Under the pieces are notes generated by a model, which saw only the letters and a list, made by a program, of their open reading frames with translations, made no database searches and was not told where the DNA came from. This document shows, in pieces, positions 31,301 through 47,250 of a stretch of DNA of 64,000 nucleotides. The stretch spans positions 1 to 64,000 of the forward strand of contig CAWEJX010000006.1 of the NCBI GenBank assembly GCA_963809485.1. Direction: 5' to 3'. The position numbers were made by a program, and so were the translations under genes. How positions within the stretch are numbered: position 1 is the first letter of the stretch; each line of letters opens with the position of its first letter. This DNA comes from an uncultured Acidobacteriota bacterium (lineage in GTDB: Bacteria > Acidobacteriota > UBA6911).

Positions 31301-33053
31301 ATGTATCGAAAAAGGGGATTACTGTCGGTTCTGACAATAGCTTTCGTTCTTATGGGCGGATCGGCCTCCTTCGGCCAGTCGCTATCGGATATCCGGCACA
31401 ACATCAAAGCGAAGGGGCAAAAGTGGATTGCGGGCGAAACATCGATTTCCGTTCTGCCGGAGAATGAGAAAAAGCGGCACCTGGGCTTGCTCAGGCAGGC
31501 CGCAAACGGCAAGGAAAAAGTTGTCCAACTGCAGGAACCGGCGACGGGCCTGGCACCATCCGTCGATTGGACGAATTTCGCCACTGCGGTGAGGTATCAG
31601 GGAAACTGCGGGAGTTGCTGGGCTTTTGCCGTCACGGCTGCCCTGGAGTCCAACATTCTGATCCGTGAAAACATGCCGCTCGGAGAGGACGACCGGGCGG
31701 AGCAGATTCTTGTTTCGTGCAGCGGCGCGGGAAGCTGCAATGGCGGGTATATAGGTTCGGCGTCGAGCTATGTACAGTCCATCGGCCTGCCGCCGGAATC
31801 GGCCTTCAGCTACACAGCCACGGATAACTCTTGCTCGAATGCCGAGATGGGATGGCAGGATGATACCAGCAAGATCGGCTCCTGGTCTTACGTGAACACC
31901 ACCCCGGCGAATCTTGCGGCCATAAAGAATGCTCTGTCCACCTACGGCCCCCTGGTCACAACGATGGATGTCTTTGGCGATTTCTATTCCTACAAGGGCG
32001 GAGTCTACGAGTATTCCACGGGGTCTCTAAGGGGAGGTCACGCCGTTCTGATCGTTGGATATACCGATGATCCGACGCGCCCCGATGGGGGCTATTTCAA
32101 GGTTAAAAACAGTTGGGGAACCGGTTGGGGCAGCAGCGGCTATTTCCTGATCGGCTATTCGCAAATGAACGGGCCCGTTTATTTCGGCGAGTGGACCATT
32201 GCGTACACGGCGCCGGTTTTGGTCTCGCCTCCGGAAGCGCCAGGCAGCTTGACTGCATCCGCGATATCCGCCAGCCGGATCGATCTGGCCTGGACCGACA
32301 ACTCGGACGATGAAGACGGATTTAGAATCGAGCGCTGCACCGGTTCAGGCTGCAGCAATTTTTCGCAGCTGGCCACGGTCGGAATCGGTGTTACCTCCTA
32401 CTCCAACACAGGTTTGACCGGAGGCACAAGCTATTCCTACCGGGTGCGCGCGTACAACAACGGAGGCAATTCGGCCTCTTCCAACACTGCAGGCGCGACG
32501 ACTCAGGCGGTCCAGCCTCCGGCAGCCCCGAGCGGTTTAACAGCAACGGCGGCTTCCACCAGCCAGATTAATCTTGCCTGGACCGACAATTCGAATAACG
32601 AATCCGGCTTTAAAATAGAGCGCTGCACCGGTTCCGGTTGTACCGGCTTCGCGCAAATAGCGACGGTTGGAGCGGGCGTCCGGTCTTACAGCAACACCGG
32701 GCTTTCGGCAAATACAATCTACAGGTACCGGGTGCGTGCCTATAATGCGGACGCAAACTCCGCATATGCGAATGAAGCGGGCGCCACGACTTTATGCAGC
32801 TGCACCATTTCACCTACCAGCAAAAGTTTCCCGGCTTCTGGGGGCACCGCTCAGCGTGACTGTTACTGCGGCCGCAGGCTGCAACTGGACGGTAAATGAA
32901 AGCCTGTCATGGGCAAATAGCGTGATTGGGACAAGCGGCACCGGCAACGGCACGTACACTTACAGGGTTGACGCAAATACAACGCGCGCCCGCCGCGCCG
33001 GGACGATCAATATCGGGGGAAAGACCCACACCATCACACAGGCGAAGAAATAG
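31301..33053 (+). CDS. Secreted papain-family (C1A) cysteine peptidase with two FN3 repeats and BACON-like tail (frameshift near 32845)
   Basis: QGNCGSCWAF, GGHAVLIVGY, VKNSWGTGWG; two LAWTDNS..E.GF.IER FN3 units; tail completed in ORF 32667..33053. Confidence 0.9.
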
Positions 33054-33879: not shown

Positions 33880-35925
33880 TTGAAGGAAAGGCAGCTGATA
33901 AGCTCGATCTGTCCTTACTGTGGATGTGGCTGCGGATTGTATCTTTGTGTTGAGGACGGAGTAGCCAAGAACATAGAATACATGGAGGACCATCCTGTAA
34001 CCGGAGGGGCTCTCTGCCCCAAGGGCAACGCCGCACTCGAGGTGATCTATCACCCGGAGCGGCTCCAATATCCAATGAAGAGACAGGGTGGTGATTGGGT
34101 AAAAATCAGTTGGGAAGAAGCGCTCGGCATGCTGGCGGATCAACTGGCGCGCATCCAGAAAACCCACGGCGCCGACGCCCTGGGCTTTTTGGCCTCAGCG
34201 AAATGCACGAATGAGGAAAATTACCTTTTCCAGAAATTAGCCCGGCTGATCGGCACAAACAATATCGACCACTGCGCCCGCCTCTGTCATGCCCCCACGG
34301 TGACCGGCCTGGTCTCCACACTGGGAAGCGGGGCGATGACAAACCCCATCCCCGACATCATCAACGCGAACTGTATTCTTATTATCGGCGCAAACCCCGC
34401 CGAGGACCATCCGATCATCAGCGGATGGATCTGGGACGCCAAGGAACAGGGCGCCAAGGTCATCGTGGTGGATCCGCGGCACACGCCCACCGCCTGGATG
34501 GCGGATAAATTCATTCAACTGAAACCAGGCACCGACATCGCCCTGATCAACGGCATAATCCACGTCATCCTCAAAGAGGGGCTGTATAACAAAGAGTTTG
34601 TGGAGGCGCGTACCACCGGTTTTGCCCAGATCCAGGAGCTTGCGGCCAAATACGATCCGGCGAGTGTCGAGAAGCTCACGGGCGTACCGAGCCATCAGCT
34701 TGAAGAGGTAGCCCGGCTTTATGCAAAATCGGCGGCCTCCTCAATTATCTACTGCATGGGGATTACGCAGCATTCCTCGGGGCACCAGCACGTTGTCAGT
34801 CTGTCCAATCTGGCGTTGATCTGCGGGCACATAGGGCGGCCCGGGACGGGCATGTTGCCGCTCAGGGGGCAAAATAATGTTCAGGGCGCTTGCGATATGG
34901 GCGGCTTGAACTCTTTCTTCCCCGGTTATGTGCGGGTTACAGATGAAGAGGGCAGAAGGCGGTTGGCCGAAAAATGGGGCGCAAAAGGCTTGCCTGGCGA
35001 ACCGGGGCTCACCGTGGTTGAAATGATCAATGCCGCCGGCGAAGGCAAAATCAAGGGCATGTACATCATGGGGGAAAACCCCGTTATCAGCGATCCGGAC
35101 TCCAATCATGTCGAAGAAGCTTTGAGCCGGCTCGAGTTCCTTGCGGTTCAGGACTTGTTCCTCTCCGAGACCGCCAAGCTGGCGCACCTGGTCCTTCCTG
35201 CTGCCAGCTGGGCGGAGAAGGAGGGGTCGTTTACGGGAACGGAACGGCGCGCCCAATGGATGCACAGGGCCATTGAGCCTCAGAGCGGCACCAAGACGGA
35301 CTGGCAAATCGTCAGCGAGGTCGCTAAAAGGCTGGGCTTCAATTTCAATTATGCCGGTCCACAGGATATCCTAAGGGAGATAAATGGGGTTGTCCCACAA
35401 TACGCCGGGATCACTCCGGAACGGATTTCACACCGGATAGGCGGCCTCACATGGCCCTGCCCTACCCCCGAACATCCCGGCACGCCCATTCTGCATGTTG
35501 AACGGTTCGCGACCCCGGACGGACTGGGCAGATTGATTCCGGTCGAGTATAAACCACCGGCGGAGGAAACAAACAGTGAGTATCCCCTGTTATTGACCAC
35601 CGGGCGGGTAGTGATGCACTACAACTCCGGCTCCATGACCAGGAGAAGCAAGGCCCTGCTTAAGCGAAGCCCCGGTCTGTTTGTCGAGATCAACCCGGGC
35701 GACGCCGAAACAGCCAAAATTAAAAACAATGAGGAGGTAAAAGTGCTGACCAAGCGCGGTGAGGCTTCGGCTGTGGCCAGCGTCACCGACAAGGTGCCTC
35801 CCGGCATAGTTTTCGTGCCTTTCCACTTTGAGGGAGCCAATGCCCTAACGATAAGCGCTTTGGACCCTGTAGCCAAAATTCCGGAATATAAGGTTGCCGC
35901 CTGCCGCATTGAAAAGAGGTCATAG
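33880..35925 (+). CDS. fdhF: Formate dehydrogenase alpha subunit, FdhF-like Mo/W-bis-PGD enzyme, Cys-type, cytoplasmic
   Basis: CPYCGCGC...CPKG Fe-S motif, NIDHCARLCHAPT, PLRGQNNVQGACDMG, PEYKVAAC; no Tat signal. Confidence 0.95.
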   Translation: MKERQLISSICPYCGCGCGLYLCVEDGVAKNIEYMEDHPVTGGALCPKGNAALEVIYHPERLQYPMKRQGGDWVKISWEEALGMLADQLARIQKTHGADALGFLASAKCTNEENYLFQKLARLIGTNNIDHCARLCHAPTVTGLVSTLGSGAMTNPIPDIINANCILIIGANPAEDHPIISGWIWDAKEQGAKVIVVDPRHTPTAWMADKFIQLKPGTDIALINGIIHVILKEGLYNKEFVEARTTGFAQIQELAAKYDPASVEKLTGVPSHQLEEVARLYAKSAASSIIYCMGITQHSSGHQHVVSLSNLALICGHIGRPGTGMLPLRGQNNVQGACDMGGLNSFFPGYVRVTDEEGRRRLAEKWGAKGLPGEPGLTVVEMINAAGEGKIKGMYIMGENPVISDPDSNHVEEALSRLEFLAVQDLFLSETAKLAHLVLPAASWAEKEGSFTGTERRAQWMHRAIEPQSGTKTDWQIVSEVAKRLGFNFNYAGPQDILREINGVVPQYAGITPERISHRIGGLTWPCPTPEHPGTPILHVERFATPDGLGRLIPVEYKPPAEETNSEYPLLLTTGRVVMHYNSGSMTRRSKALLKRSPGLFVEINPGDAETAKIKNNEEVKVLTKRGEASAVASVTDKVPPGIVFVPFHFEGANALTISALDPVAKIPEYKVAACRIEKRS

Positions 35926-35927
35926 AG

Positions 35928-36431
35928 GTGAAGAAGGTTCTTTACATTGATATAAAGCGCTGTATCTATTGCCGCTCGTGTGAGGTTGCCTGTGAGCGTG
36001 AGCATGAGGGGCATTCACATATGAATGTTGTGCCTATCCATGGAAGGCACGCTGTCCCGATGAATTGCCGCCATTGTGAAAAGCATCCGTGCCTGACGGT
36101 TTGTCCAACGAAGGCCATCACGCGGGAAGAGGGCGGTCCTGTCATCATCCACACCATGAAATGCATCGGCTGCCGAATGTGCGCCATGGTGTGTCCGTTT
36201 GGGATTCTCAACTTTGACGTCCTTGGACGAGTCATGCGGAAATGCGACCTGTGCATTCATCGCCTCAGCGAAGGCAAAAACCCCGCCTGTGTCACCACCT
36301 GCCCGGCTCGCGCGTTGGTATTTGATGACTTCGATTCGATAATGTCGAGAACCAAGGAGAAAGCAGCCCACGCTGTAATCAGCGGAGTGGGGTCACAGCC
36401 GGGTACGGTGATCATCCCACCGAAAGGCTAA
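35928..36431 (+). CDS. hycB: 4x[4Fe-4S] electron-transfer subunit (HycB/HyfA/HydN-like)
   Basis: CIYCRSCEVAC, CRHCEKHPCLTVCP, CIGCRMCAMVCP, KCDLC...PACVTTCP. Confidence 0.88.
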   Translation: MKKVLYIDIKRCIYCRSCEVACEREHEGHSHMNVVPIHGRHAVPMNCRHCEKHPCLTVCPTKAITREEGGPVIIHTMKCIGCRMCAMVCPFGILNFDVLGRVMRKCDLCIHRLSEGKNPACVTTCPARALVFDDFDSIMSRTKEKAAHAVISGVGSQPGTVIIPPKG

Positions 36432-36459
36432 TCTAGAACTTAACGTGTAACTGAGGCAG

Positions 36460-38148
36460 ATGCTGTTTTATGCAAGATACCAAAAAAGTGCTGTCGTAAG
36501 AGAATCGGTTGACCAACTCGTCCGGAAATTCCCGCAAGCCGTTCTCAAAACCGAAATGGTGGATTCACAAACCGTTTCCGTAAACATAATCCCCTCCGCC
36601 ATCCAAGGCGTTTGCAAAGAAATTTACGACCAGGGCGCCCGATTTGTCTCCTCCGCGGCTACCGATCAGATCAGGAAAAACAACACGCTCGAGCTTAGCC
36701 ATTTCTTTTCTTTTGATGAGGAGCACCTGACCTGTATCGTCAAGACCCAGATCGATGCTGCAGCCCCATCGGCCCAATCCATTTCCTCCATTATCCCGGG
36801 GGCAAACTGGGCCGAGCGTGAATGCCAGGATCTGTTGGGGATTGAATTCGTTGATCATCCGGATTCAAGAAGACTCATTCTGGCCGATGATTGGCCGAAA
36901 GGGGTTCATCCGCTAAGGAAGGATTTCCCTTATAACTACAAGCCGCCATCGGCGCCCGAAAACGCAGTCATCCTTAAGGCGCCGGATCCCCCGGCAAGTG
37001 TCGTGCCAATCGGCCCGTTCTACCCGGTCCTCGAAGAACCGGCATATTTCAGGGTTTTCGTCGAAGGCGAAAAGATAACCGGTTGTGATTATCGGGGATT
37101 CCACAATCACCGGGGCATTGAAAAGTTGGGCGACAGCTCGATGACCTATAACGAGGTGTGCTTTCTCGCAGAGCGCATATGAGGGATATGAGGATATATA
37201 CACAGTACGTGCTACTGTGAGGCCATCGAAAACGCAGCAAACATAGAAGTCCCCCAAAGAGCCCGCTTTATCCGGACTCTGCTCCTGGAGCTGGAAAGAA
37301 TCCACAGCCACCTTCTCTGGCTTGGTATCGCCGGGCATATCATCGGCTTTGACACGATCTTGATGCAGGCATGGCGAGTGCGCGAGCCGATAATGTGGCT
37401 TTGCGAGCTCATCACCGGCAATCGCAAAACCTACGGCATGAATCTGGTCGGGGGCGTGCGGCGGGACATCACCAAGGAGCAAAAGCCCAAGATCCTTGAA
37501 GTCGTCGGCAAAATCGAGTCCCAGCTGAAGGAGATCATCGACGCTATTCTGGGTGACACGACTCTCCATCTGCGGCTCAAAGACGTGGGGGTTCTGACAA
37601 AAGAAACCGCGCGGCAATTCTGCCCCGTCGGTCCAACGGTGCGTGGTTCAGGCATTGCCATCGACAGCCGTGTGAACCACCCCTATGCGGCTTATTCAGA
37701 AATACCGCCTCAGGTAATAACCCAATCGGAGGGAGATATCTGGGCGCGAACCATTGTCAGACTGCTGGAAACGCTCGAATCTGTCAACATGGTAAGGCGA
37801 GCCGTGCAGGAAATGCCCGGTGGCGAGATTATGGCGGACGTCCAGGAAATCCCCCCCTGGCAAGAGGGCATCTCATACATCGAGGCTCCGCGCGGGGAGT
37901 GCATGCACTATGTGATAACGGGTCCCGATAACCGGCCTCACCGATGGCGCGTGCGGGCGCCCAGCTATATGAATCTGCAATCCGTTCCTGCCATGCTTAT
38001 GGGGTATTCCATCGCGGACGCGCCCATAATCATCGGCAGCATCGATCCGTGCTTTTCCTGCACCGAGCGGCTTGAGGTGGTGGACACCAGAACCAATAAG
38101 GCTAGGATTTACACCCAGAAAGAATTGCTGGCGCTCAGTAAGAGATAA
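36460..38148 (+). CDS. hycE: Group 4 [NiFe]-hydrogenase large subunit (NuoC-D fusion, HycE/HyfG-like), 562 aa, read through two in-frame TGA codons (candidate Sec241 and Sec244)
   Basis: One frame: HPLRKDF, HRGIEKL, AERI*GI*GYIHS, ELERIHSHL, EAPRGE, SIDPCFSCTER plus C-terminal extension; TGA at 37180 and 37189. Confidence 0.9.
37201..37219 (+). promoter_or_regulatory. Candidate bacterial SECIS hairpin
   Basis: CACAGTA-CGTGC-TACTGTG perfect 7-bp stem; loop has G at position 2 and starts 16 nt after the second and 25 nt after the first TGA. Confidence 0.6.
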
Positions 38149-38153
38149 GAACC

Positions 38154-38675
38154 ATGCTGCTAAGCAAACTCAAAGAGGCGCTGATCTGTTTTAAAAACCT
38201 GCGGGTGACCTTGCCTTACCCCTTCCAGCCTGCGCCGCCTCCTCCGGGATTCAGAGGACGGGTGGAGGTTGACATCAATAAATGCATCGGTTGCGCCGCC
38301 TGCGCCGTAGCTTGCCCGCCAAAGCTGATTGACATCAAGGACCTGGATGGCAAGCGCATCCTTGAGTTTCGGATGGGGAGATGCACCTACTGTGCCCGGT
38401 GCGCCGAGGTCTGTCCCACAGTCGCCATCACCATGACCCCGGACTTTGAACTGGCTACCGATAACAAGGCCGACCTGAACATCAGCGTGGAGTTAAACAT
38501 GGTGAAGTGCGAGCACTGCGGAGATGCCTTCACCACCCAGCGCATCATGCACAAGCTGGTGGCTGAAGCGTCCAAAGAATTGGGCATGGAACCTGCCGAC
38601 ATGAAGTGGCTCCATTTATGTCCCGAATGCCGCGTTGCTTCGGAGGTTGAAAAAATGATGGAGGCGGAAAGCTAA
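38154..38675 (+). CDS. hycF: 2x[4Fe-4S] subunit (HycF/HyfH/NuoI-like)
   Basis: PPGFRG, CIGCAACAVACP, CTYCARCAEVCP, extra CEHC...CPEC. Confidence 0.9.
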   Translation: MLLSKLKEALICFKNLRVTLPYPFQPAPPPPGFRGRVEVDINKCIGCAACAVACPPKLIDIKDLDGKRILEFRMGRCTYCARCAEVCPTVAITMTPDFELATDNKADLNISVELNMVKCEHCGDAFTTQRIMHKLVAEASKELGMEPADMKWLHLCPECRVASEVEKMMEAES

Positions 38676-38678
38676 GGC

Positions 38679-40145
38679 ATGAATGGCTTAATGGCAAGCC
38701 TCATACTAATACCGATGGCAGGGGCTTTCCTCAGCTATCCCTTAAAGTCCCGTACGGGCGACAGGATACCGGCCCTGGCGGCCGGTATCACTTTTATTAT
38801 CGCGATCGTCTCAATAGTTTTGGGTTATCCCCGCACGAACCAAACCTTCGTAGGCCAACTCCCCTGGCTTGAAACCAAAGTCCAGCTCTTTGGATTTCTT
38901 CTGGATCCCCTAAGCTCATTAATGCTTATTGTAATCACCGCCATCGGCGTGCTGGTGGTTATCTATTCCTCCGAATACCTGAGCCCCAGAAACAAAGACC
39001 ACGCATATTCGGAGGCTAAAGGGAGTTACTACTTCTGGCTGCTGTTGTTTATTGGTTCTATGGTGGGTATCGCGGTCTCCCCGAGTTTTCTGCAGCTTTT
39101 TATGTTCTGGGAGATGACCACCATGTGTTCCTGGGCGCTCATCTCTTACCATAAGGACAGCAAGTCCCTGTTTAGCGGATTCAAGGCACTGCTTTTGACT
39201 CACCTGGGCGGTGCAGCGCTTCTCACCGCCCTGGCGATTCTTTTTGTGAACACGGGATCGCTGGCCTTCAACGCCCTGGACAGTCTGACGCCCAATACGA
39301 GATTGGCTGTCTTCCTGTTGATTGTGGTAGCCGCCTGGGCCAAGGCGGCTCAGATTCCGTTCTACACCTGGCTGCCCGATGCCATGGCAGCTCCGACGCC
39401 GATCAGCGCCTATCTTCATGCCGCTGCTATGGTCAAGGCGGGCGTTTACCTGGTAGCGCGGGTGGCCGTATCGAATGCCGAAATCCCTCACACTGGGGGA
39501 ATGATATTGGGCATCATGGCCGTGATCACCATGATTGTGGCCGTCATCATGTACTTTTTCCAAGACGACCTGAAACGGCTGCTTGCCTTTTCCACCATCG
39601 GGCATTTGGGCTATATCCTCTTTGGCGTCTCGCTTGGAATCATGGGCTCCAACACCGGCCTGCAAGGCGGCATTCTGCACATTATCAACCATGGCTGCGC
39701 CAAAGGCCTGTTGTTCCTGTCCGTCGGCGCTATAGCCTATGCTACGGGTTCCAGGAGCATAAAGGAGTTGAGTGGTCTGGGCAGCAAGTTGCCCGTGATT
39801 TCAATGGGATTTATCATCGGCCTTTTTGCCGTGACCGGAGTGCCGCCCCTCTCCTGTTTCTGGAGCAAGTTTATGATGTTCACCGGCGCTTTTGAAATTG
39901 GCGGAGTTGCCGGACCCGTTATGGGAGTGCTGGCGATAGCGGAAAGTCTGGCGGCCTTCGCATGGTACCTGCTGGTGGGACAAAAAGTGTTTTTTGGAAA
40001 AGTTTCGGAAAGGGCGGATACGGCTACCAGGAATATTTCACCGCTGATTACCGTGCCGCTGATCATTCTGATGGCATTATGCTTTTTGGCGCCCTTGATC
40101 GGATGGCCGTTCGTGCAATATCTGAAGATAGGAATATTTCACTGA
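38679..40145 (+). CDS. hyfD: Antiporter-like membrane subunit (HyfD-like)
   Basis: FWEMTT, AKAAQIPFYTWLPDAMAAPTPISAYLHAAAMVKAG, LKRLLAFST. Confidence 0.82.
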   Translation: MNGLMASLILIPMAGAFLSYPLKSRTGDRIPALAAGITFIIAIVSIVLGYPRTNQTFVGQLPWLETKVQLFGFLLDPLSSLMLIVITAIGVLVVIYSSEYLSPRNKDHAYSEAKGSYYFWLLLFIGSMVGIAVSPSFLQLFMFWEMTTMCSWALISYHKDSKSLFSGFKALLLTHLGGAALLTALAILFVNTGSLAFNALDSLTPNTRLAVFLLIVVAAWAKAAQIPFYTWLPDAMAAPTPISAYLHAAAMVKAGVYLVARVAVSNAEIPHTGGMILGIMAVITMIVAVIMYFFQDDLKRLLAFSTIGHLGYILFGVSLGIMGSNTGLQGGILHIINHGCAKGLLFLSVGAIAYATGSRSIKELSGLGSKLPVISMGFIIGLFAVTGVPPLSCFWSKFMMFTGAFEIGGVAGPVMGVLAIAESLAAFAWYLLVGQKVFFGKVSERADTATRNISPLITVPLIILMALCFLAPLIGWPFVQYLKIGIFH

Positions 40146-40167
40146 TGAATCCACAGGGAAGCAGGCT

Positions 40168-42234
40168 ATGGGCCCAGTAGTGTTTTTATTTATCGGATTT
40201 CTGCTTCTTGTTGCAGGGGCTGTGCTGGCCATGGCGACCCATCGGTCGCGTTTGGTTTGCTCATGGCTTTCTTTTTCCTTCGTTTTGCCGGCGGCAGGGT
40301 GTTTTCTGTATCTGGCCATCCTGGTCTTCACCCATGGCCCGATTACGATGCCCGCGCCGTTGCTCGTCCTGCCTGGAATTGGAGCCGGTCTCACCATTGC
40401 TATTGATCCGCTCTCGGCTCTGCTGCTTCTAATCGTGGGCATAATTTCCACGTGCACGACCCTTTTCTCAGTCAAATACACACTGCGCTATCAGGGTGAA
40501 TCGCTGATTCGCTATTATCCTTTCCTTTTGCTGCTCTTTGCTTCTATCGTCGGCGTTGTTTGCACCCGCGACATGCTTTTCCTCATCGCCTTCTGGGAAA
40601 TAATGACCCTAACCTCTTACGCCTTGGTGGTGTTTGAGCGGGGCAACACGGTCGGCCTGAAAGCGGGATTCACGTATTTCCTGGCGACTCACATAGCTAC
40701 TGCCTGCCTGATCATTGCGGCGATTATGCTCTATATCAGAACACCGGCGCCGCACTCGTTCGCTTTCGAGAGTATCAGCGCATCGCTTGGAACAATGATG
40801 GCGGCTCATTCTGGCCTGGCCCATCTGGTTCTGGCTCTGTTTTTCATCGGTTTTGTCACCAAGGCGGGCGTTCTGCCTTTCGGCTTCTGGCTCCCGGACA
40901 CCTATCCCGCGGCGCCCAGCGGCGCCTCAGCGGCCTTTGCGGGAACCATGACCAAGCTGGGTGTCTATGGCGTGGTCCGTGTTTTCTGTGAGATTCTGCC
41001 CATATCCCATCATTCTTACGTATGGGGACAGGTCATTGCCGTTTTGGGCACTCTCTCCATTTTTGTCGGCACCCTGTCGGCCCTGGTTCAAGATGACTCG
41101 AAGAGACTCATGTCCTTCCATGTTATCGGGCAGATCGGATATATGCTTCTCGGAATCGGCCTGGGCGTATTTTTGCTGCCGGTGAATCCGCCTCTGGCCA
41201 CGATAGCGCTCGTCAGCGGCATCTTTCACCTGCTCAACCACACGATGTACAAGTCGTGCCTCTTCCTCAATGCCGGCTCGATTCTTTACCGGACGGGGAC
41301 TCGCGATTTGAACAAGGTCGGCGGGTTATTGAGAATAATGCCGTTCACGGGGGCTACCGCTATCATCGCGTCGTTATCGATTGCCGGCCTTCCGCCTTTC
41401 AGCGGCTTTTCCAGCAAACTGCTCATTTTTGAAGCCTCTATAATAAGCGGAGTAGGATCGCCCCTTTTTATTGTCCTCGGCCTGATTGCCATCTTTATTT
41501 CAGCGGTCACGCTGGCCTCTTTCCTGAAGTTCCTGAACACCGCTTTTTTGGGGAAACTTTACGCCGAGGGAGGGATAAATGATCTAAAGGATGTCCCTCT
41601 CTCAATGAAAATACCTCAGGGCGTGCTGGCTTTCCTGTGCATCTTTTTTGGTGTGGTGCCCCTGTTGCCCATCCGGATGATACACAGCGCGGTCAGCTCT
41701 ATACTGCCGGCAAATTACTCGCCGGCGGCGGGCTCTCTCTTTGGAACATCCATGCCCGGGTTTAGCCTGGATCTGGGGCAGGGAGTTTTTGGCACCTGGA
41801 ATCCCCTTTGGGCTTTGATTGCCATTACGATCCTTTTTGCTTTTGGGTTCCTGATATCCAGGGCCGGGGTAGCACGGAAAAGGGAGGCAGAGACGTGGTA
41901 CGGGGGCAGGGATCACGAGGTGGAACATGTCCGCTACCCGTCGCACAGCTTCTACATCCCTTTCAAACAGCTGTTTTCCTTTACTCTTGGGAATACCAGG
42001 TTTGAAGGGATGTACCCCAAGTCCCTCGAATTGCCCAAGTTGGCCGTGCCCGGTGGACTAAAAGCGGTGCTGGATATCGACCGCTGGCTCTACTATCCCT
42101 TTGTCAGCGGCTTTATGAGGCTGAGCCGGTGGTTCAGCCGAATCCATGTGGGAATACCGCAGGTCTATGTGTTATGGATCATCATGGGAGTAATCGCCTG
42201 TATCATCGTTCTTTTCCTGTTGCCGGCGAATTAA
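40168..42234 (+). CDS. hyfB: Antiporter-like membrane subunit, long (HyfB/HycC-like)
   Basis: FWEIMT, KAGVLPFGFWLPDTYPAAPS, GLPPFSGFSSK; 688 aa with C-terminal extension. Confidence 0.8.
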   Translation: MGPVVFLFIGFLLLVAGAVLAMATHRSRLVCSWLSFSFVLPAAGCFLYLAILVFTHGPITMPAPLLVLPGIGAGLTIAIDPLSALLLLIVGIISTCTTLFSVKYTLRYQGESLIRYYPFLLLLFASIVGVVCTRDMLFLIAFWEIMTLTSYALVVFERGNTVGLKAGFTYFLATHIATACLIIAAIMLYIRTPAPHSFAFESISASLGTMMAAHSGLAHLVLALFFIGFVTKAGVLPFGFWLPDTYPAAPSGASAAFAGTMTKLGVYGVVRVFCEILPISHHSYVWGQVIAVLGTLSIFVGTLSALVQDDSKRLMSFHVIGQIGYMLLGIGLGVFLLPVNPPLATIALVSGIFHLLNHTMYKSCLFLNAGSILYRTGTRDLNKVGGLLRIMPFTGATAIIASLSIAGLPPFSGFSSKLLIFEASIISGVGSPLFIVLGLIAIFISAVTLASFLKFLNTAFLGKLYAEGGINDLKDVPLSMKIPQGVLAFLCIFFGVVPLLPIRMIHSAVSSILPANYSPAAGSLFGTSMPGFSLDLGQGVFGTWNPLWALIAITILFAFGFLISRAGVARKREAETWYGGRDHEVEHVRYPSHSFYIPFKQLFSFTLGNTRFEGMYPKSLELPKLAVPGGLKAVLDIDRWLYYPFVSGFMRLSRWFSRIHVGIPQVYVLWIIMGVIACIIVLFLLPAN

Positions 42235-42238
42235 AGGA

Positions 42239-43147
42239 ATGAGATTTGTAATTGGCATCAGCATATTAAACCTGTTTGTCGCCCTGGGCCTTTCGCCGCT
42301 GTTTGAGGGCCTGGCCAGGAAACTCAAGGCCCTGGTGCATTCCCGCATCGGCCCGCCCGTAATCCAGCCCTACTACGACTTGCTGAAACTGGCAGGGAAA
42401 GAAGACCTCCAGCCGAAGGGCATGCCTTTCGCCCGGTTTCTTCCCGGGATTTGCTTTGTTACGGTGGCTGTGGCAGCCCTATTCGTACCGATGGGCACCG
42501 GCAGAGCTCCCCTGGGAACCGCCGGGGATTCCATGTTCTTTATCTACATCGTTACTTTGGTTGCCGTAAGCATGATCATGACCGCGGCGGCGTCGGAAAA
42601 TCCGTTCTCTTATATCGGCGCATCGAGGGAAGTGATGCTGCAACTGACGGTGGAGCCGGTGATGGTGATCGCCCTGGTCACGGCTGCCTTGAATGCCCGT
42701 TCCTTCGGTTTTGGTGATATGGTGGATTGGTATCACTTCAGCGGTCCCTCGATTTCAATGATCATCGCCACAATCTCCCTTTTCCTGGCGCTTCAGGCAC
42801 AGGTAGGCAAGCTGCCTTTTGACATGGCTGAAGCTGAAACTGAGATAGCGGGCGGATTATTTATCGAGCAAAGCGGTCCCAAATACGCGCTTCTGCGGTG
42901 GACGATGATGGCGAAGCAGGTCATCTTCGCCTCCCTTTTCGTGCAAGTTTTCATCCCCTGGCCGAGAACGGGGAATCTGGCTTGGGATGTCCCAATTCAC
43001 CTGGCCAAGGTTCTTGTGTTGGTGGCGATCATCAGTGTCATCGATACGGTCAATCCCCGGCTCAGGATTGACCAGGCAGTGAGATATTATCTGATATTGG
43101 TTTTCTTCTCACTGGCCGGTATTGCCTTTGCCGTTATCGGCGCCTAG
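42239..43147 (+). CDS. hyfC: NuoH-like membrane subunit (HyfC/HycD)
   Basis: RIGPPVIQPYYDLLKL, KLPFDMAEAETE, PRLRID. Confidence 0.88.
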   Translation: MRFVIGISILNLFVALGLSPLFEGLARKLKALVHSRIGPPVIQPYYDLLKLAGKEDLQPKGMPFARFLPGICFVTVAVAALFVPMGTGRAPLGTAGDSMFFIYIVTLVAVSMIMTAAASENPFSYIGASREVMLQLTVEPVMVIALVTAALNARSFGFGDMVDWYHFSGPSISMIIATISLFLALQAQVGKLPFDMAEAETEIAGGLFIEQSGPKYALLRWTMMAKQVIFASLFVQVFIPWPRTGNLAWDVPIHLAKVLVLVAIISVIDTVNPRLRIDQAVRYYLILVFFSLAGIAFAVIGA

Positions 43148-43167
43148 ATTGACAGAGGAGACCAAGG

Positions 43168-43848
43168 ATGGTTGAGAGCATTGCTCTGGGGGACTTCATT
43201 GTCACCCTGTATCTGATCCATTTTGGATTTTCGCTGCTTGCGGCCGAGCTGCGCAACCTGAAATGGTCTGTCGCTGCTATCGTGGTGCAATCCCTGACGT
43301 TATCCGGCATACTCATTACTTTCGCCAGCATTGGGTCCAACCCCTCATTGTACTGGTGGGGTTTTACTACACTGGGAACCAAGGTCTTCGCAATTCCCTA
43401 TTTGTTGTGGCTTTATATCCGTCGTTTGCCGACCGCCGAGACTCGTCCGTGGCTGGGAACAATTCCTTCTGTGGGAGTTATGCTGGTTCTTGTTGTTGTA
43501 TTCTACAACTTCCTGCATACCCATGTGGAATTTATCGCCCCCAGCCTGGAGGCAGCCCTTGAGCCGGCCAGGTCGAATCTGGCGCTTTCTTTAACAATTT
43601 GTGCCTTGGGATTGTGGGTGCTTCTGGTGCGGAGGGATGCTGTCAAAGCCGTCATCGGCCTGGTCTTGTTGGAAAACGGCGTTCACCTTGCGCTGGTGAC
43701 CCTGGCGCCTACCTTACCTGAGACCACGCTGATCGGCATCGTCACCAATGTCATCATTACCGTTTGGCTCCTTCTGTATCTTGCGGGCAGGATTTTCAAG
43801 GTTCTGGGGACGACCGACACCGCGGTGCTGTCCGAACTGAAGCATTAG
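43168..43848 (+). CDS. hyfE: Hydrogenase-4 membrane subunit HyfE-like
   Basis: ~7 TM, TKVFAIP and LLENGVHL patterns; operon position. Confidence 0.82.
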   Translation: MVESIALGDFIVTLYLIHFGFSLLAAELRNLKWSVAAIVVQSLTLSGILITFASIGSNPSLYWWGFTTLGTKVFAIPYLLWLYIRRLPTAETRPWLGTIPSVGVMLVLVVVFYNFLHTHVEFIAPSLEAALEPARSNLALSLTICALGLWVLLVRRDAVKAVIGLVLLENGVHLALVTLAPTLPETTLIGIVTNVIITVWLLLYLAGRIFKVLGTTDTAVLSELKH

Positions 43849-43863
43849 CCGAAAAATGGAATA

Positions 43864-45375
43864 ATGGAAAGCTCAAGAGAAGTAACCTCTATATTGCCGG
43901 TTCTGGTATTTGCATTGCCCGCAGGCGTCGCCATCCTAATTTTCGCTCTCGGGCGGTTGCACGCCATCTTCCGTGAAGGCCTTGCCCTTTTAGGCCTGGC
44001 AGCCACATTTTTGGTCTCGCTGGCCATCTCAGGGCGGGTGCTGCACGGGGAACTCCTGATAGCCTGGGGACGCAATCTGTATGTCGACGGGTTGAGCGCT
44101 CTAATGGAGACGCTCGGCTCCGCTATGGCCATAATAATTGTCTTGTACTCTACCAGGTACTTGACACAGCACCAGATCGGCATGCCGCTGAATCCTTGGC
44201 GGCACACATATTTTTATGGGTTGCTGGTACTGTTTGTGGCTACTCTCAATTGGACTTGTGCCACCAACAGCCTTATCTGGATGTGGGTCTCGCTGGAAGC
44301 AACCACGCTCACATCGGCGCTTCTGGTGACCTTCTACTGGAAACGGGAATCCATGGAGGCAGGATACAAATACCTGCTTTTGATAAGCGTGGGAGTGACC
44401 CTGGCGCTGTTGGGCTGCGTCCTTATTTACGCGGCAGCCATTCCGCTTCTGCCGGGACCTCATGTGATGCTTCTCACTGAAATTGGCAGGATCGCCAAAA
44501 TGATGCCGGAAAGCGTTGTGCTGATAGCCTGCGCCATGTTTGTGGCGGGTTTCGGCACCAAGGCGGGACTTATCCCGTTTCATGCCTGGCTTCCCGACGC
44601 CCATTCCGAAGCGCCGGTTCCTGTCAGCGCGCTGCTCTCCGGCGTGGTGATCAAGATCGGGGCTTATGCCCTTGCGCGCACCGTTACCATTTTCGCTCCC
44701 CACTATGCCGCTGTGGTCCTCTTCGTCGCCATTCTGGCCTCGGTCAGTATGGTGATCGGCATCGTCATGGCGCTGGTTCAGGACGATCTCAAGAGGCTTT
44801 TAGCCTATTCCAGCATCAGCCAGATTGCCTATGTGATTGAGGGTCTGGGACTGGGCACCTACCTGGGAATCTATGGCGGGCTATTTCACATGGTCAATCA
44901 TGCCATCGTAAAGGCCTTGCTGTTCCTCTGCGCCGGAGCCTTGATGTACGCCGCCGGCACGAGGGAAATAAGCAAGCTGGGCGCGGTGGCAAAAAAAATG
45001 CCGGTGACCACGTTTTGCTTTTTCGTCGGCGCCCTTGCGATTGGGGGTATGCCGCCGTTCAACTGCTTTATGAGCAAGGTGACGATTTTCTTTGCACTGG
45101 CCGAGCGAGGAATACTCTGGGCTGCAATTATAGGAATAGCGACGGGAATACTCACCGTGGCCTGTTTTGCCTGGACTGCCTTCAGGATATTCTGGCAGAA
45201 GCCGACGGCGGAACCGAATCCTGACACAGAGGTGAAGCAAGTGCCGGTCCTCATGCAGGCCAGCATGCTGGTTTTGGCGTTTGCTTGTATTCTTTTAGGG
45301 ATCTATCCCCGAATGCTCTATCCCGTGTTGAACACCGCTACCGAAAGCATACTTAGAATTTTAGGGGCAGGGTAA
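43864..45375 (+). CDS. hyfF: Antiporter-like membrane subunit (HyfF-like)
   Basis: WVSLEATTL, EAGYKY, GTKAGLIPFHAWLPDAHSEAP, LKRLLAYSS. Confidence 0.82.
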   Translation: MESSREVTSILPVLVFALPAGVAILIFALGRLHAIFREGLALLGLAATFLVSLAISGRVLHGELLIAWGRNLYVDGLSALMETLGSAMAIIIVLYSTRYLTQHQIGMPLNPWRHTYFYGLLVLFVATLNWTCATNSLIWMWVSLEATTLTSALLVTFYWKRESMEAGYKYLLLISVGVTLALLGCVLIYAAAIPLLPGPHVMLLTEIGRIAKMMPESVVLIACAMFVAGFGTKAGLIPFHAWLPDAHSEAPVPVSALLSGVVIKIGAYALARTVTIFAPHYAAVVLFVAILASVSMVIGIVMALVQDDLKRLLAYSSISQIAYVIEGLGLGTYLGIYGGLFHMVNHAIVKALLFLCAGALMYAAGTREISKLGAVAKKMPVTTFCFFVGALAIGGMPPFNCFMSKVTIFFALAERGILWAAIIGIATGILTVACFAWTAFRIFWQKPTAEPNPDTEVKQVPVLMQASMLVLAFACILLGIYPRMLYPVLNTATESILRILGAG

Positions 45376-45381
45376 ACAGTT

Positions 45382-46254
45382 ATGCTGAAAAAACCCCCCA
45401 TTGCATTTGCCATCGTCAGCCTGCTCGCATTGCTGTCAGGTTGTATCGCGCCTGCCCCGCCGAAACCCGGCAAAAAGCTGGTTACGATCTGCGTCCAGCC
45501 AATATATTCTCTGCATGTAATGACACAGAAGTACTCGCCCCTTTTTCGATATCTTGCCGATGAAACAGGGTATGACATAAGGGTTGTCTCGGCGATGAGC
45601 TATGATAGTTATCTGCCCACACTGGAGAGCAACCAGGTCCATCTGGGGATTCAGAATCCGCTGGCCTATATCACATTGGTCAAGACCAGGGGCGCGCATC
45701 CCCTGGCAAAGATGGTTGAATTGAATGGGAGTACCTTATATCGCGGTATAATCATTGCACGTAAAGACAGCGGCATACAAAAAATAGAGGATTTGAGGGG
45801 CCAGACAGCCGCCGCCTCCTCCCGCAGGGCGATCGGGGGATTCTTTGCTCAGGCCTATCACTGCAGGCAGCATGGCCTGGATGTCAACAAAGATCTTCGA
45901 CTCTTCCTGGTGGACACTCAGGATGCTGTTGTCAATGCCGTCTATCAAGGAAAAGTGAAGGTGGGTTTTGTGAGGGAGGACGCTTTGCCGCCTGCAAAAG
46001 AAGGAACAGACTTAAAGGCGATTACGGTTATCGCCCATACGGACTATTATCCGACATGGTGCGTAGCAGCTTTCGCCGAAACACCCCCGGAGGTTGAGCG
46101 AGAGATAACCAAGGCGCTTTTGAATCTCGACCCGGGAAATCCGGGACACCGCGGCGTATTGGCATCGATCGGGATCGCCGGGTTTCAGGAGGCATCGGAC
46201 CTCGATTACGACATACTACGAAAAGCCATGGACGGTTTGAGTCTTCCGTACTAG
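45382..46254 (+). CDS. PhnD/PtxB-like periplasmic binding lipoprotein
   Basis: Lipobox LSGC; YRGIIIARKDSGIQKIEDLRG, DAVVNAVYQGKVKVG, ASDLDYD type 2 PBP patterns. Confidence 0.8.
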   Translation: MLKKPPIAFAIVSLLALLSGCIAPAPPKPGKKLVTICVQPIYSLHVMTQKYSPLFRYLADETGYDIRVVSAMSYDSYLPTLESNQVHLGIQNPLAYITLVKTRGAHPLAKMVELNGSTLYRGIIIARKDSGIQKIEDLRGQTAAASSRRAIGGFFAQAYHCRQHGLDVNKDLRLFLVDTQDAVVNAVYQGKVKVGFVREDALPPAKEGTDLKAITVIAHTDYYPTWCVAAFAETPPEVEREITKALLNLDPGNPGHRGVLASIGIAGFQEASDLDYDILRKAMDGLSLPY

Positions 46255-46267: not shown

Positions 46268-46768
46268 ATGCTGAAATCTCTGATCCAAAAGATAACAGGA
46301 AAGGCTTTCACGAAGGCACTCTGGGTTTACCATGTCAACACAGGGGCCTGCAACGGATGTGATATTGAGGTCATTGATGTCTTGACTCCTTATTACGATG
46401 CGGAACGGTTTGGGATCAAGCTGGTAGGTTCGCCCCGGCAGGCCGATGTCCTTCTCGTTTCCGGACCGGTGACTCGACAGATAGCCTCAGGCCTCCTCAA
46501 AGTATATGAGGCTACGCCCGAACCCAAGCTGGTCTTTGCCATCGGCTCCTGCGCAATCGACGGGAATATTTTTCATGACAGCTATAACGTAATCGGCGGC
46601 GTGGACAAGGTAATTCCCGTGCATTTATACATCCCCGGTTGTCCCCCACGACCGGAGGCTATCCTTTATGGCGTGGCCCAGGCCCTGGGCCTGGTGCCCA
46701 AGAAGGTTAAAGCAGTCCGGTTGACGCAGGAAGGCGATGGGGCGCCCGCCAACTTGCCCCCGAAATGA
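46268..46768 (+). CDS. hycG: Group 4 hydrogenase small subunit (HycG/HyfI/NuoB-like)
   Basis: GACNGCDIE, SPRQAD, GSCA, PGCPPRP. Confidence 0.92.
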   Translation: MLKSLIQKITGKAFTKALWVYHVNTGACNGCDIEVIDVLTPYYDAERFGIKLVGSPRQADVLLVSGPVTRQIASGLLKVYEATPEPKLVFAIGSCAIDGNIFHDSYNVIGGVDKVIPVHLYIPGCPPRPEAILYGVAQALGLVPKKVKAVRLTQEGDGAPANLPPK

Positions 46769-47250
46769 AGACACTGGAGTCGCTGTTTCGGAAAATGGGC
46801 CCCAAGTTTGTGCTGCTGGGCGTGGGGAATCCCTTACGCGGAGATGACGGCGCGGGACCGGAATTATTGCGACGCCTCAGGAACAAAACGAGCGCCATCC
46901 TGCTTGATTGCGAAGAAGTTCCCGAAAACTATCTTGGTGAGATCGCGGCAATTCAGCCTGAAACCGTTGTTGTCATTGACGCCGTGAATCTCGGAACCGG
47001 AGCCGGTGCGGTAGCGCTATTGGAAGAAGACAACTTCCAGTCCATCGGCTGGTCGACACACCATGGTTCCCTGAGAGCGCTGGTCCAATATATTAAGGCG
47101 ACCACACAGGCTGAGGTTTTCGTTCTGGGAATCCAGCCGAAGTCGACAGAACTGGGCGGCGAGCTAAGTCCCGAGGTCACACAGACGATTGACCTATTGC
47201 AGGAGATCATCACAACGCATTCTGTTTCAGGTGAACCGCCCCGTCTCTAG
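46765..47250 (+). CDS. hycI: Hydrogenase maturation endopeptidase
   Basis: LGVGNPLRGDDGAG, VPEN, VIDA, STH, LGIQP; ATGA overlap with small subunit. Confidence 0.92.
   Translation: MKTLESLFRKMGPKFVLLGVGNPLRGDDGAGPELLRRLRNKTSAILLDCEEVPENYLGEIAAIQPETVVVIDAVNLGTGAGAVALLEEDNFQSIGWSTHHGSLRALVQYIKATTQAEVFVLGIQPKSTELGGELSPEVTQTIDLLQEIITTHSVSGEPPRL

What the first reader, a model, noticed from the sequence alone, without database searches (positions are those of the whole stretch)
36460..38148. Candidate double-selenocysteine (UxxU) group 4 hydrogenase: both N-terminal metal ligands encoded by TGA
Seen: GAG CGC ATA TGA GGG ATA TGA GGA TAT ATA CAC reads ERI*GI*GYIH, where group 4 enzymes have RxCGxC. 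HycE-like sequence continues in frame on both sides to give 562 aa. The TGAs are codons 241 and 244 and the C-terminal DPCFSC cysteines are 531 and 534, matching E. coli HycE ligand numbering. All other operon genes, including the maturation protease, look intact, and TGA is a normal stop in the same operon (40145, 46768). Established: characterised [NiFeSe] hydrogenases carry one Sec at the first position of the C-terminal motif; the N-terminal pair supplies one terminal Ni ligand and one Ni-Fe bridging ligand. Inference: a hydrogenase with two Se ligands, one bridging, which I do not know to be described in nature. Standard gene callers would split it. Alternatives: UGA-to-Cys recoding, pseudogenisation, or a context-specific base-call error, since both sites read ATATGAGG (although ATATGCGG occurs unaltered at 7825-7832).
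Basis: partly seen in the sequence, partly recalled or inferred. Interest (0 to 1): 0.95.

Follow-up and report, generated by a model that had tools for sequence, protein, structure and literature searches.

The report
Double-selenocysteine formate hydrogenlyase hydrogenase, already published
The gene is a real, conserved hydrogenase whose two N-terminal nickel-binding cysteines are replaced by UGA (selenocysteine) codons, but this enzyme type was described from genome data in a September 2026 paper, so it is a confirmation and not a discovery.

Summary
Window 36460-38148 (+) reads as a 562-aa HycE-like large subunit with TGA at codons 241 and 244, where homologues have RxCGxC. The C-terminal DPCFSC motif is intact.

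It is not an error or a pseudogene:
- The same two TGAs occur in another species of the genus. Purifying selection acts downstream (omega 0.072, dS 0.81).
- They occur in 15 of 22 species-level genomes and 46 of 68 metagenome contigs found with a motif scan. The remainder are CxxU.
- One conserved hairpin with a loop G lies 9 nt after UGA2 and 18 nt after UGA1.
- The genome has tRNA-Sec, selA, selB and a TGA-containing selD. No tRNA-ReC-like tRNA was found.

The enzyme type is already in print. Takano et al., Front Microbiol 2026 (PMC13582414), report 47 Group 4 [NiFeSe] sequences, 16 of them UXXU, with the same SECIS feature.

What this work adds is incremental: a Cys-type Fdh partner, selection statistics, environmental counts and tRNA checks. 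Sec incorporation remains unproven experimentally.

The parts
33880..35925 (+). Formate dehydrogenase alpha subunit, Cys-type (Cys at the Mo/W-ligand position that is Sec in solved relatives)
   Evidence: TIGR01591 Fdh-alpha 864.9 bits. Pfam Molybdopterin, Molydop_binding and Molybdop_Fe4S4. The stretch H-C-A-R-L-C-H aligns with H-C-A-R-L-X-H of 9t1s_L. No in-frame TGA.
35928..36431 (+). 4Fe-4S dicluster ferredoxin subunit (HycB-like)
   Evidence: Pfam Fer4_11 and related families.
36460..38148 (+). HycE-like catalytic large subunit (fused NuoC-like and NuoD-like domains), UXXU type, 562 codons with two in-frame TGA
   Evidence: The start codon is uncertain; an alternative start is at 36470 with a possible A-run length error.
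37180..37182 (+). UGA codon 241, at the position of the first (terminal Ni) Cys of the RxCGxC motif
   Evidence: TGA at this position in G001, in 15 of 22 genome loci and in 46 of 68 metagenome contigs.
37189..37191 (+). UGA codon 244, at the position of the second (Ni-Fe bridging) Cys of the RxCGxC motif
   Evidence: TGA also in G001, G016 and G022. It was required by the scan pattern.
37201..37219 (+). SECIS-like hairpin: 7-bp stem CACAGUA/UACUGUG, loop CGUGC with G at loop position 2 (third base of a Thr ACG codon). It lies 9 nt after UGA244 and 18 nt after UGA241.
   Evidence: In 20 distinct U-type sequences 90% of cells are paired, with a UA-to-CG compensatory change in 3. It is the only conserved helix by RNAalifold. 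It matches the Group 4b description in PMC13582414.
38154..38675 (+). 4Fe-4S ferredoxin subunit (HycF/NuoI-like)
   Evidence: Pfam Fer4_7, Fer4 and Fer4_21.
38679..40145 (+). Antiporter-like membrane subunit; ends in an ordinary TGA stop
   Evidence: Pfam Proton_antipo_M and Proton_antipo_N; stop codon checked.
40168..42234 (+). Antiporter-like membrane subunit (688 aa)
   Evidence: Pfam Proton_antipo_M and Proton_antipo_N.
42239..43147 (+). NuoH/HycD/HyfC-like membrane subunit
   Evidence: Pfam NADHdh.
43168..43848 (+). NuoK/HyfE-like membrane subunit
   Evidence: Pfam Oxidored_q2.
43864..45375 (+). Antiporter-like membrane subunit
   Evidence: Pfam Proton_antipo_M.
45382..46254 (+). Phosphonate-binding-like (PF12974) protein inside the cluster; role unknown
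   Evidence: Pfam Phosphonate-bd, 186.7 bits.
46268..46768 (+). Small subunit (NuoB/HycG-like); ends in an ordinary TGA stop that overlaps the next start
   Evidence: Pfam Oxidored_q6; NF005012; stop codon checked.
46765..47250 (+). HycI-type hydrogenase maturation endopeptidase
   Evidence: TIGR00072 99.2 bits; TIGR00142 hycI 96.9 bits, below its cut-off of 119.1; Pfam HycI.

Best explanation
Window 36460-38148 encodes the catalytic large subunit of a formate-hydrogenlyase-like, membrane-bound Group 4 [NiFe] hydrogenase. It belongs to the 'UXXU type' described in silico by Takano et al. 2026.

Shown:
- The gene is one continuous, selectively maintained reading frame.
- The two N-terminal active-site ligand codons are UGA.
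- The C-terminal pair (C531, C534) stays Cys.
- A single conserved hairpin (37201-37219) with a G in its apical loop lies 9 nt after the second UGA and 18 nt after the first.
- The genome encodes tRNA-Sec(UCA), SelA, SelB and a Sec-type SelD.
- The neighbouring genes encode a Cys-type formate dehydrogenase, two ferredoxin subunits, three antiporter-like subunits, NuoH- and NuoK-like subunits, a small subunit and a HycI-type protease.

Inferred:
- SelB carrying Sec-tRNASec docks on that one hairpin and decodes both UGAs as selenocysteine.
- The mature Ni-Fe site then has Se at one terminal Ni position (residue 241) and at one Ni-Fe bridging position (residue 244). It has S at the other terminal and bridging positions.
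- After metal insertion, HycI removes the C-terminal extension. This step rests on recalled knowledge of E. coli HycE.
- The complex couples formate oxidation to H2 production, or the reverse, with ion translocation.
For: 1. Frame and family. There is one 562-aa frame with two TGAs. Pfam and NCBIfam support the family. The protein aligns to E. coli HycE 7z0s_E at E 2.6e-134, with the TGAs on the two Cys of the N-terminal motif.

2. Conservation of the TGAs. Of 12 HycE-like loci taken from 41 related genomes, 2 are UXXU (G000, and G001 at 83% identity), 2 are CXXU and 8 are CXXC. A degenerate-motif scan of species-representative genomes found 22 loci: 15 UXXU and 7 CXXU. DPCFSC was present in all 18 whose locus reached it. 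The same scan of metagenome contigs found 68: 46 UXXU and 22 CXXU.

3. Selection. Between G000 and G001, omega is 0.161 upstream and 0.072 downstream of the TGAs, at dS 1.01 and 0.81. Between G022 and G016, omega is 0.103 and 0.096.

4. Hairpin.
- It is present at the same place in all 20 distinct U-type sequences from genomes. 18 share the register, 90% of cells are paired, and 0 of 500 shuffles reached that. A UA-to-CG compensatory pair occurs in 3 sequences. G016 and G022 have a re-registered 7-bp hairpin built from different codons.
- All 47 distinct metagenome segments have a hairpin with G at loop position 1 or 2.
- 0 of 8 CXXC relatives have an equivalent hairpin with such a G.
- RNAalifold keeps only this helix.
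- The loop G is the third base of a Thr ACG codon, exactly as the paper describes for Group 4b.

5. Sec machinery. tRNA-Sec scored 70.6 bits and ARAGORN calls it SeC(tca) with an 8-bp acceptor stem and G73. selA scored 564.7 bits, selB 391.3 bits, and selD 345.5 bits with 1 in-frame TGA. The selD UGA is followed by a 7-bp hairpin after 13 nt.

6. No tRNA-ReC. ARAGORN found 48 tRNAs. The two tRNA-Cys(gca) are canonical 76-nt cloverleaves. All other Rfam tRNA-Sec hits are Ser, Leu, Tyr or Gly tRNAs.

7. Independent assemblies. Logan contigs of three DNA runs bridge 37171-37230, and no difference is listed at 37180-37191.

8. Maturation genes. hypF, hypD and hypE are present at C20:715-720 kb.

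9. Precedent. Takano et al. 2026 describe this type. Engineered Cys-to-Sec changes at each of the four ligands of E. coli Hyd-1 give variants that could be characterised (abstract of PMC8020662). UxxU motifs are listed for other predicted bacterial selenoproteins (passages).
Against: - No protein-level or labelling data exist, here or in the paper, so Sec versus Cys at either site is inferred.
- The first UGA lies 18 nt from the hairpin. That is farther than the 9 nt of UGA2 and the 13 nt of this genome's selD. From recall, E. coli fdhF tolerates little change from about 11 nt, so efficient decoding of UGA1 by the same hairpin is not assured.
- Rfam has no family matching the hairpin.
- Covariation is thin: 2 pairs have changes on both sides, a count reached by 58 of 500 shuffles. 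The stem is also coding sequence.
- The genome is 95.67% complete with 7.32% contamination, so a tRNA-ReC could be unassembled. ARAGORN was used, not tRNAscan-SE as in the paper.
- In this assembly hypD and hypE are each split between two frames. If these breaks are real rather than assembly indels, maturation would be impaired in this organism.
- In one search, 74 difference rows were not shown, and the runs are contigs, not raw reads of the source sample.
Confidence: 0.8

Rival explanations
1. One or both UGAs are read as cysteine, not selenocysteine. This could happen through a SelB-dependent tRNA-ReC (selC*) that was not assembled or not recognised, or through another suppressor. The mature enzyme would then be an ordinary, or only singly substituted, [NiFe] site.
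For: Takano et al. report tRNA-ReC-like tRNAs in about 56% of UXXU genomes against about 2.3% of other Sec-type genomes. They state that either or both UGAs may then be read as Cys. The genome here is 95.67% complete. UGA1 sits at an unusual 18-nt distance from the hairpin.
Against: No tRNA of 80 nt or more with a UCA or GCA anticodon and U73 was found. ARAGORN lists one SeC(tca) with G73 and two canonical 76-nt Cys(gca). Every other Rfam tRNA-Sec hit is a Ser, Leu, Tyr or Gly tRNA. The complete Sec pathway is present, including a Sec-type selD.
Confidence: 0.1
2. Only UGA244 is decoded efficiently. UGA241 mostly terminates or is read at low efficiency. The tandem UGAs would then act mainly as a selenium-dependent throttle on synthesis of the large subunit, with little full-length product.
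For: The hairpin spacing is canonical for UGA2 (9 nt; CXXU relatives have the same hairpin at 9-10 nt) but 18 nt for UGA1. No second conserved helix was found for UGA1.
Against: UXXU is maintained in 15 of 22 genome loci and 46 of 68 metagenome contigs across several phylum labels. Purifying selection downstream is strong (omega 0.072), which requires that the full-length protein is made and matters. At E <= 1e-50 the genome has no second full-length HycE-type copy. Its only other match covers residues 181-460 (43% identity).
Confidence: 0.07
3. The TGAs are assembly or base-call errors, or the gene is a pseudogene.
For: The assembly looks indel-prone. An AcrB-family gene in the window is in four frame pieces. 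hypD and hypE are each in two. Both TGAs share the context ATATGAGG.
Against: These are substitutions, not indels. The identical TGAs occur in independent assemblies of other species and in dozens of metagenome contigs, and in Logan contigs of three further runs. The frame is intact for 318 codons after the TGAs, with omega 0.072 at dS 0.81.
Confidence: 0.02

Closest known systems
UXXU-type Group 4b [NiFeSe] hydrogenase large subunits (Takano, Inoue, Aono, Ochi, Mihara, Front Microbiol 2026;17:1925269, PMC13582414; in silico only)
   Same: Sec codons occur only in the N-terminal motif, at both positions. The gene cluster is formate-hydrogenlyase-like: Fdh, ferredoxins, antiporter-like subunits, HyfC- and HyfE-like subunits and a small subunit. 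There is a single downstream SECIS-like hairpin whose conserved loop G is the third base of a Thr ACG codon. selABCD co-occur. Acidobacteriota is among the phyla they list. Relatives of the same genus here carry Acidobacteriota record titles.
   Different: I could not see their Supplementary Table 1, so I cannot say whether this assembly is one of their 16 UXXU sequences. No tRNA-ReC was found here, whereas they find it in about 56% of UXXU genomes. The Fdh here keeps its Cys ligand, whereas about half of theirs lack Cys/Sec. A PF12974 phosphonate-binding-like gene sits in this cluster and is not mentioned in the sections I read.
E. coli formate hydrogenlyase Hyd-3 large subunit HycE (Group 4a; PDB 7Z0S/7Z0T)
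   Same: It is the best solved relative (E 2.6e-134, residues 92-557 aligned). It shares the fused NuoC-like and NuoD-like architecture, the same two ligand motifs, and a HycI-type protease and Fdh partner.
   Different: HycE has four Cys ligands, and its Fdh-H partner carries the Sec. Here the arrangement is reversed: Cys-type Fdh and Sec codons in the hydrogenase. This cluster also has three antiporter-like subunits and a different gene order.
Classical [NiFeSe] hydrogenases of Groups 1a and 3 (e.g. Desulfomicrobium baculatum; Methanococcus voltae Vhu/Fru)
   Same: A Ni ligand is supplied by selenocysteine encoded by UGA.
   Different: In those enzymes a single Sec replaces the first Cys of the C-terminal motif, a terminal ligand next to the proton-relay Glu (abstracts of PMC13582414 and PMC8020662). 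Here that position stays Cys (C531) and the N-terminal pair is recoded, including a bridging position.
Engineered Cys-to-Sec variants of E. coli Hyd-1 (Evans et al., PNAS 2021, PMC8020662)
   Same: Sec was placed at each of the four Ni ligand positions, including the two N-terminal ones, and the variants could be characterised (abstract).
   Different: These were single substitutions in a Group 1d enzyme, made by engineered translation. Activities per mg were lowered. No natural double substitution was studied.

Membership tests
[NiFe] hydrogenase large subunit, Group 4 (HycE/HyfG-like) | N-terminal ligand motif RxCGxC, with Cys or Sec at the two ligand positions | tested here: met
   The sequence reads E-R-I-U-G-I-U-G and aligns to R-V-C-G-I-C-G of 7z0s_E. 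The Pfam NiFeSe_Hases match at 218-287 spans it.
[NiFe] hydrogenase large subunit, Group 4 (HycE/HyfG-like) | C-terminal ligand motif DPCxxC followed by a cleavable extension | tested here: met
   DPCFSC lies at 529-534, and 28 further residues follow to the stop. That the extension is cleaved is inferred from recalled knowledge of HycE and HycI.
[NiFe] hydrogenase large subunit, Group 4 (HycE/HyfG-like) | NuoD-like fold with fused NuoC-like N-terminal domain | tested here: met
   Pfam Complex1_30kDa at 43-160 and Complex1_49kDa.
Formate hydrogenlyase-like complex (Group 4b as used by Takano et al. / HydDB) | Cluster with Fdh alpha, ferredoxin subunits, several antiporter-like subunits, HyfC- and HyfE-like subunits, and a small subunit | tested here: met
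   Searches show all of these between 33880 and 47250 on one strand.
Formate hydrogenlyase-like complex (Group 4b as used by Takano et al. / HydDB) | Assignment to subgroup 4b by the HydDB classifier or by phylogeny with reference sequences | not testable with these tools
   No HydDB classifier or reference set was available. The subgroup is inferred from cluster content and from the match of the SECIS and Thr-ACG feature to the paper's 4b description.
Bacterial selenoprotein gene | In-frame UGA aligned with Cys in homologues, with the frame conserved beyond it | tested here: met
   8 of 12 same-genus homologues have Cys at both positions. Omega downstream is 0.072.
Bacterial selenoprotein gene | SECIS stem-loop shortly downstream of UGA with G in the first two apical-loop positions | tested here: met
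   A 7-bp hairpin lies at 37201-37219 with loop C-G-U-G-C. It is conserved in 20 of 20 genome and 47 of 47 metagenome distinct sequences. No Rfam family covers it.
Bacterial selenoprotein gene | Genome encodes tRNA-Sec, SelA, SelB and SelD | tested here: met
   all are over the curated cut-offs.
Bacterial selenoprotein gene | Selenium demonstrated in the polypeptide | not testable with these tools
   This needs 75Se labelling or mass spectrometry.
UGA-to-Cys recoding by tRNA-ReC (selC*) | tRNA of 80 nt or more with a UCA or GCA anticodon and U73 (criterion of Takano et al.) | tested here: not met
   None was found among the 48 ARAGORN tRNAs or the 10 Rfam tRNA-Sec hits. The genome is 95.67% complete, and tRNAscan-SE was not available.

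The most novel reading that the evidence does not exclude
Both UGAs, three codons apart, are decoded as selenocysteine by SelB from one hairpin that sits 9 and 18 nt downstream, in a genome without tRNA-ReC. Two things would follow.

1. This would be a natural Ni-Fe site with two Se ligands, one of them bridging. No such site has been characterised biochemically.
2. A bacterial SECIS would have a 'reach' of at least 9 nt. Sec could then spread codon by codon to a neighbouring Cys without any new RNA element.

The second point is consistent with my tree. All 16 U-type sequences form one clade that shares U at position 2. U at position 1 is present or absent in at least three places. One caveat applies: my scan required TGA at position 2, so UXXC forms could not be seen. 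The idea of one SECIS for both codons is already raised as a possibility in Takano et al..
Probability: 0.6. Interest if true: 0.6.

Novelty: already known. Interest (0 to 1): 0.4.

Why it matters
[NiFeSe] hydrogenases are valued for high H2-production activity and oxygen tolerance, and every characterised one carries a single Sec at the C-terminal terminal-ligand position. A natural enzyme with Se at the N-terminal terminal and bridging positions would test how chalcogen identity at each ligand tunes catalysis. It would also test how a bacterial ribosome decodes two UGAs nine bases apart with one SECIS.

That case has now been made in print from genome data (PMC13582414), so this window does not open the question. 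Its value is as a well-supported instance:
- The genome is near-complete and has full Sec machinery.
- No tRNA-ReC was detected.
- The operon is intact and the Fdh partner is Cys-type.
- Close relatives occur in wetland, soil and sediment metagenomes.

It could therefore serve as a template for the missing experiments.

Tried and rejected
- Rfam scan of 37100-37320 at E <= 10. The only hit was a chance snoRNA match (9.4 bits). No curated bacterial SECIS family matched, so the hairpin rests on my own folding and comparison.
- Small 12-sequence tree. It put the UXXU pair sister to the same-genus CXXU pair (80/77). I first read this as a stepwise CXXU-to-UXXU route within the genus. The 24-sequence tree supersedes it. 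G000 and G001 group with two UXXU sequences from records titled Dehalococcoidaceae (100/100), and the same-genus CXXU pair lies elsewhere in the U-type clade. From that tree I left out 8 loci whose gene was incomplete in the fetched stretch (L027, L030, L031, L034, L037, L042, L045, L046) and 2 exact duplicates (L038 = G001, L033 = G016).
- Search for a second, UGA1-specific structure. RNAalifold on 18 sequences of 75 nt kept only the 6-bp core of the one hairpin. A short AUAU/AUAU pairing around UGA2 seen in the G000 fold is not conserved in other UXXU sequences.
- Elevated synonymous conservation around the SECIS. The windows starting at codons 234 and 244 have third-position identity 0.80. 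Other windows reach 0.80-0.85, so this is only suggestive.
- Read-level check. Only Logan contigs were laid, not raw reads of the source sample. No run held half of the sampled words, and the best share was 0.35. The RNA run X20 covered only 37297-37453 with a relative's sequence, so it says nothing about expression or about the TGAs. Parts without cover in X1 are not evidence. 74 difference rows were not displayed.
- Structure prediction, fold search, complex prediction, the search for homologous proteins, the search of protein representatives and the protein-atlas search were not used. The family and the ligand alignment were unambiguous from HMM and PDB sequence searches.
- Supplementary files of PMC13582414 were not seen. 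They list the accessions, so I could not tell whether this assembly is among the 47 sequences.
Full report
**1. Observation**

- The window reads GAG CGC ATA TGA GGG ATA TGA GGA TAT ATA CAC at 37171-37203.
- Reading TGA through, 36460-38148 is a single 562-residue frame. Only two codons depart from table 11: U241 (37180-37182) and U244 (37189-37191).
- Standard ORF calling splits the gene into 36460-37182 and 37360-38148.
- Pfam finds Complex1_30kDa, NiFeSe_Hases (218-287, spanning both TGAs) and Complex1_49kDa.
- The best solved relative is E. coli formate hydrogenlyase subunit 5, 7z0s_E (E 2.6e-134). The two TGA positions fall on the two Cys of its N-terminal ligand motif.
- DPCFSC occupies residues 529-534.
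- TGA is an ordinary stop at 40145 and 46768, and ATATGCGG is at 7825.

**2. Surroundings**

Twelve co-directional ORFs run from 33880 to 47250:
- a formate dehydrogenase alpha subunit (TIGR01591, 864.9 bits);
- a 4Fe-4S ferredoxin;
- the large subunit;
- a second ferredoxin;
- three antiporter-like subunits;
- a NuoH-like and a NuoK/HyfE-like subunit;
- a PF12974 phosphonate-binding-like protein;
- a NuoB-like small subunit;
- a HycI-type protease.

The Fdh has Cys where the solved relative 9t1s_L has its non-standard residue. So the usual E. coli arrangement (Sec in Fdh, Cys in hydrogenase) is reversed here.

**3. Not an error, not a pseudogene**

I searched 41 related genomes with stops read through. 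28 of the 41 had a match at E <= 1e-50, and I took 12 HycE-like loci.
- G000 and G001 (83% identity, another species of the same genus) have TGA at both positions.
- G016 and G022 have TGA at the second position only.
- 8 have Cys at both.

Selection between G000 and G001:

| Region | Omega | dS |
|---|---|---|
| Upstream of the TGAs | 0.161 | 1.01 |
| Downstream of the TGAs | 0.072 | 0.81 |

The part after the 'stops' is therefore under stronger constraint than the part before.

A degenerate DNA pattern for E-R-[IVM]-[C/U]-G-[IVM]-U-G-[FY]-x-H gave these counts:

| Collection | Loci or contigs | UXXU | CXXU |
|---|---|---|---|
| Species-representative genomes | 22 | 15 | 7 |
| Metagenome contigs | 68 | 46 | 22 |

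The pattern demands TGA at the second position, so UXXC and all-Cys forms are invisible to it.

Logan contigs of three DNA runs bridge 37171-37230. No difference is listed at the TGAs, although 74 rows were not shown.

**4. Recoding signal**

- A perfect 7-bp hairpin lies at 37201-37219, with stem CACAGUA/UACUGUG and loop CGUGC. It is 9 nt after UGA244 and 18 nt after UGA241.
- Among the 20 distinct U-type sequences from genomes, 18 share this register. 90% of cells are paired (0 of 500 shuffles as high). Pair 27-35 is U-A in 15 sequences and C-G in 3.
- G016 and G022 have a different 7-bp hairpin at the same place, built partly from a synonymous Ser codon switch.
- All 47 distinct metagenome segments have a hairpin with G at loop position 1 or 2.
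- None of the 8 all-Cys relatives has an equivalent hairpin with such a G.
- RNAalifold finds no other conserved helix within 75 nt.
- Rfam has no matching family.
- The genome's own selD has its UGA 13 nt before a 7-bp hairpin.

**5. Machinery**

- The genome (95.67% complete, 7.32% contamination, 21 contigs) has a tRNA-Sec. Rfam scores it 70.6 bits. ARAGORN calls it SeC(tca), 99 nt, with an 8-bp acceptor stem and G73.
- selA scores 564.7 bits, selB 391.3 bits, and selD 345.5 bits with one in-frame TGA.
- No tRNA fits the tRNA-ReC criteria used in the literature. The two tRNA-Cys are canonical 76-nt molecules. Every other tRNA-Sec-model hit is a Ser, Leu, Tyr or Gly tRNA.
- hypF, hypD and hypE lie together on C20.
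- hypD and hypE are each split between two frames. An AcrB-family gene in the window is in four pieces. The assembly therefore seems indel-prone.

**6. What is known**

A full-text search found Takano et al., Front Microbiol 2026;17:1925269 (PMC13582414). I read its abstract, Methods, Results and Discussion. It reports the following:
- 47 non-redundant Group 4 [NiFeSe] large subunits come from nine phyla, including Acidobacteriota.
- UXXU occurs in Group 4b formate-hydrogenlyase-like clusters.
- A SECIS loop G in Group 4b is the third base of a Thr ACG codon, which is exactly what is seen here.
- selABCD are enriched, and tRNA-ReC is enriched in UXXU genomes.
- The authors suggest that one SECIS may serve both UGAs.
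- They cite earlier reports of N-terminal CXXU in Groups 1 and 3.

A search for 'UXXU' plus 'hydrogenase' found only that paper and two selenoproteome reviews. The reviews list UxxU motifs in other predicted bacterial selenoproteins (passages only). Evans et al. 2021 replaced each Ni ligand of E. coli Hyd-1 by Sec (abstract).

- Record titles of loci identical to G001, G016 and G022 place the genus in Acidobacteriota.
- In a 24-sequence tree all 16 U-type sequences form one clade (87/79), apart from seven same-genus all-Cys sequences.
- G000 and G001 group with two UXXU sequences from Dehalococcoidaceae-titled records (100/100), consistent with cross-phylum transfer.
- UXXU and CXXU interchange at least three times within the clade.
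- One genus thus holds all-Cys, CXXU and UXXU forms.
- The session also adds selection statistics, hairpin spacing relative to selD, the absence of tRNA-ReC, the Cys-type Fdh and the environmental counts.

**8. Verdict**

- This is a genuine, functional, UXXU-type Group 4 hydrogenase gene (confidence about 0.8 that both codons are recoded through SelB and the SECIS, most likely as Sec).
- The kind is already known and the biochemistry is untested.

Noticed in passing
window 36460-36500: The start of the large-subunit gene may carry an A-run length error. An ATG at 36470 opens a short frame whose first residues resemble the N-terminus of the G001 orthologue, but it is one base out of frame with the rest of the gene across the A-run at 36483-36488. 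The residue numbering (241/244/531/534) therefore depends on the chosen start.
   Followed up: partly
window 27077-30221 (-): An AcrB/AcrD/AcrF-family transporter gene is in at least four frame pieces. These are Pfam ACR_tran positions 60-421, 421-487, 506-563 and 566-1019, on ORFs 29043-30221, 28780-29097, 28536-28874 and 27077-28615. Either it is a pseudogene or the assembly is indel-prone.
   Followed up: partly
G000 C20:717898-720056: hypD (profile 5-338 and 323-370) and hypE (1-190 and 186-332) are each split between two reading frames at a single point. hypF next to them is intact. If the breaks are real, hydrogenase maturation would be affected. Assembly indels are the more likely cause.
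   Followed up: partly
window 45382-46254 (+): A PF12974 phosphonate-binding-like (periplasmic substrate-binding) gene sits inside the hydrogenase cluster, between the last antiporter-like subunit and the small subunit. I did not check whether relatives' clusters have it.
   Followed up: no
window 33880-35925 (+): The formate dehydrogenase of the cluster is Cys-type in a genome that has full Sec machinery and puts Sec codons in the hydrogenase. This is the reverse of the E. coli FHL arrangement.
   Followed up: yes
window 31250-32899 (+): A papain-family (Peptidase_C1) protease with fibronectin type III domains lies just upstream of the hydrogenase cluster.
   Followed up: no
L028, L029 versus L014, L015: The closest UXXU relatives of the window's gene outside its genus are in records titled Dehalococcoidaceae (Chloroflexota), grouping at 100/100 support. 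This suggests transfer of the gene, or of the whole cluster, between phyla.
   Followed up: partly
G000 C8:81012: selD itself has an in-frame TGA, followed after 13 nt by a 7-bp GC-rich hairpin with loop GGC. It is an internal example of this organism's SECIS spacing.
   Followed up: yes
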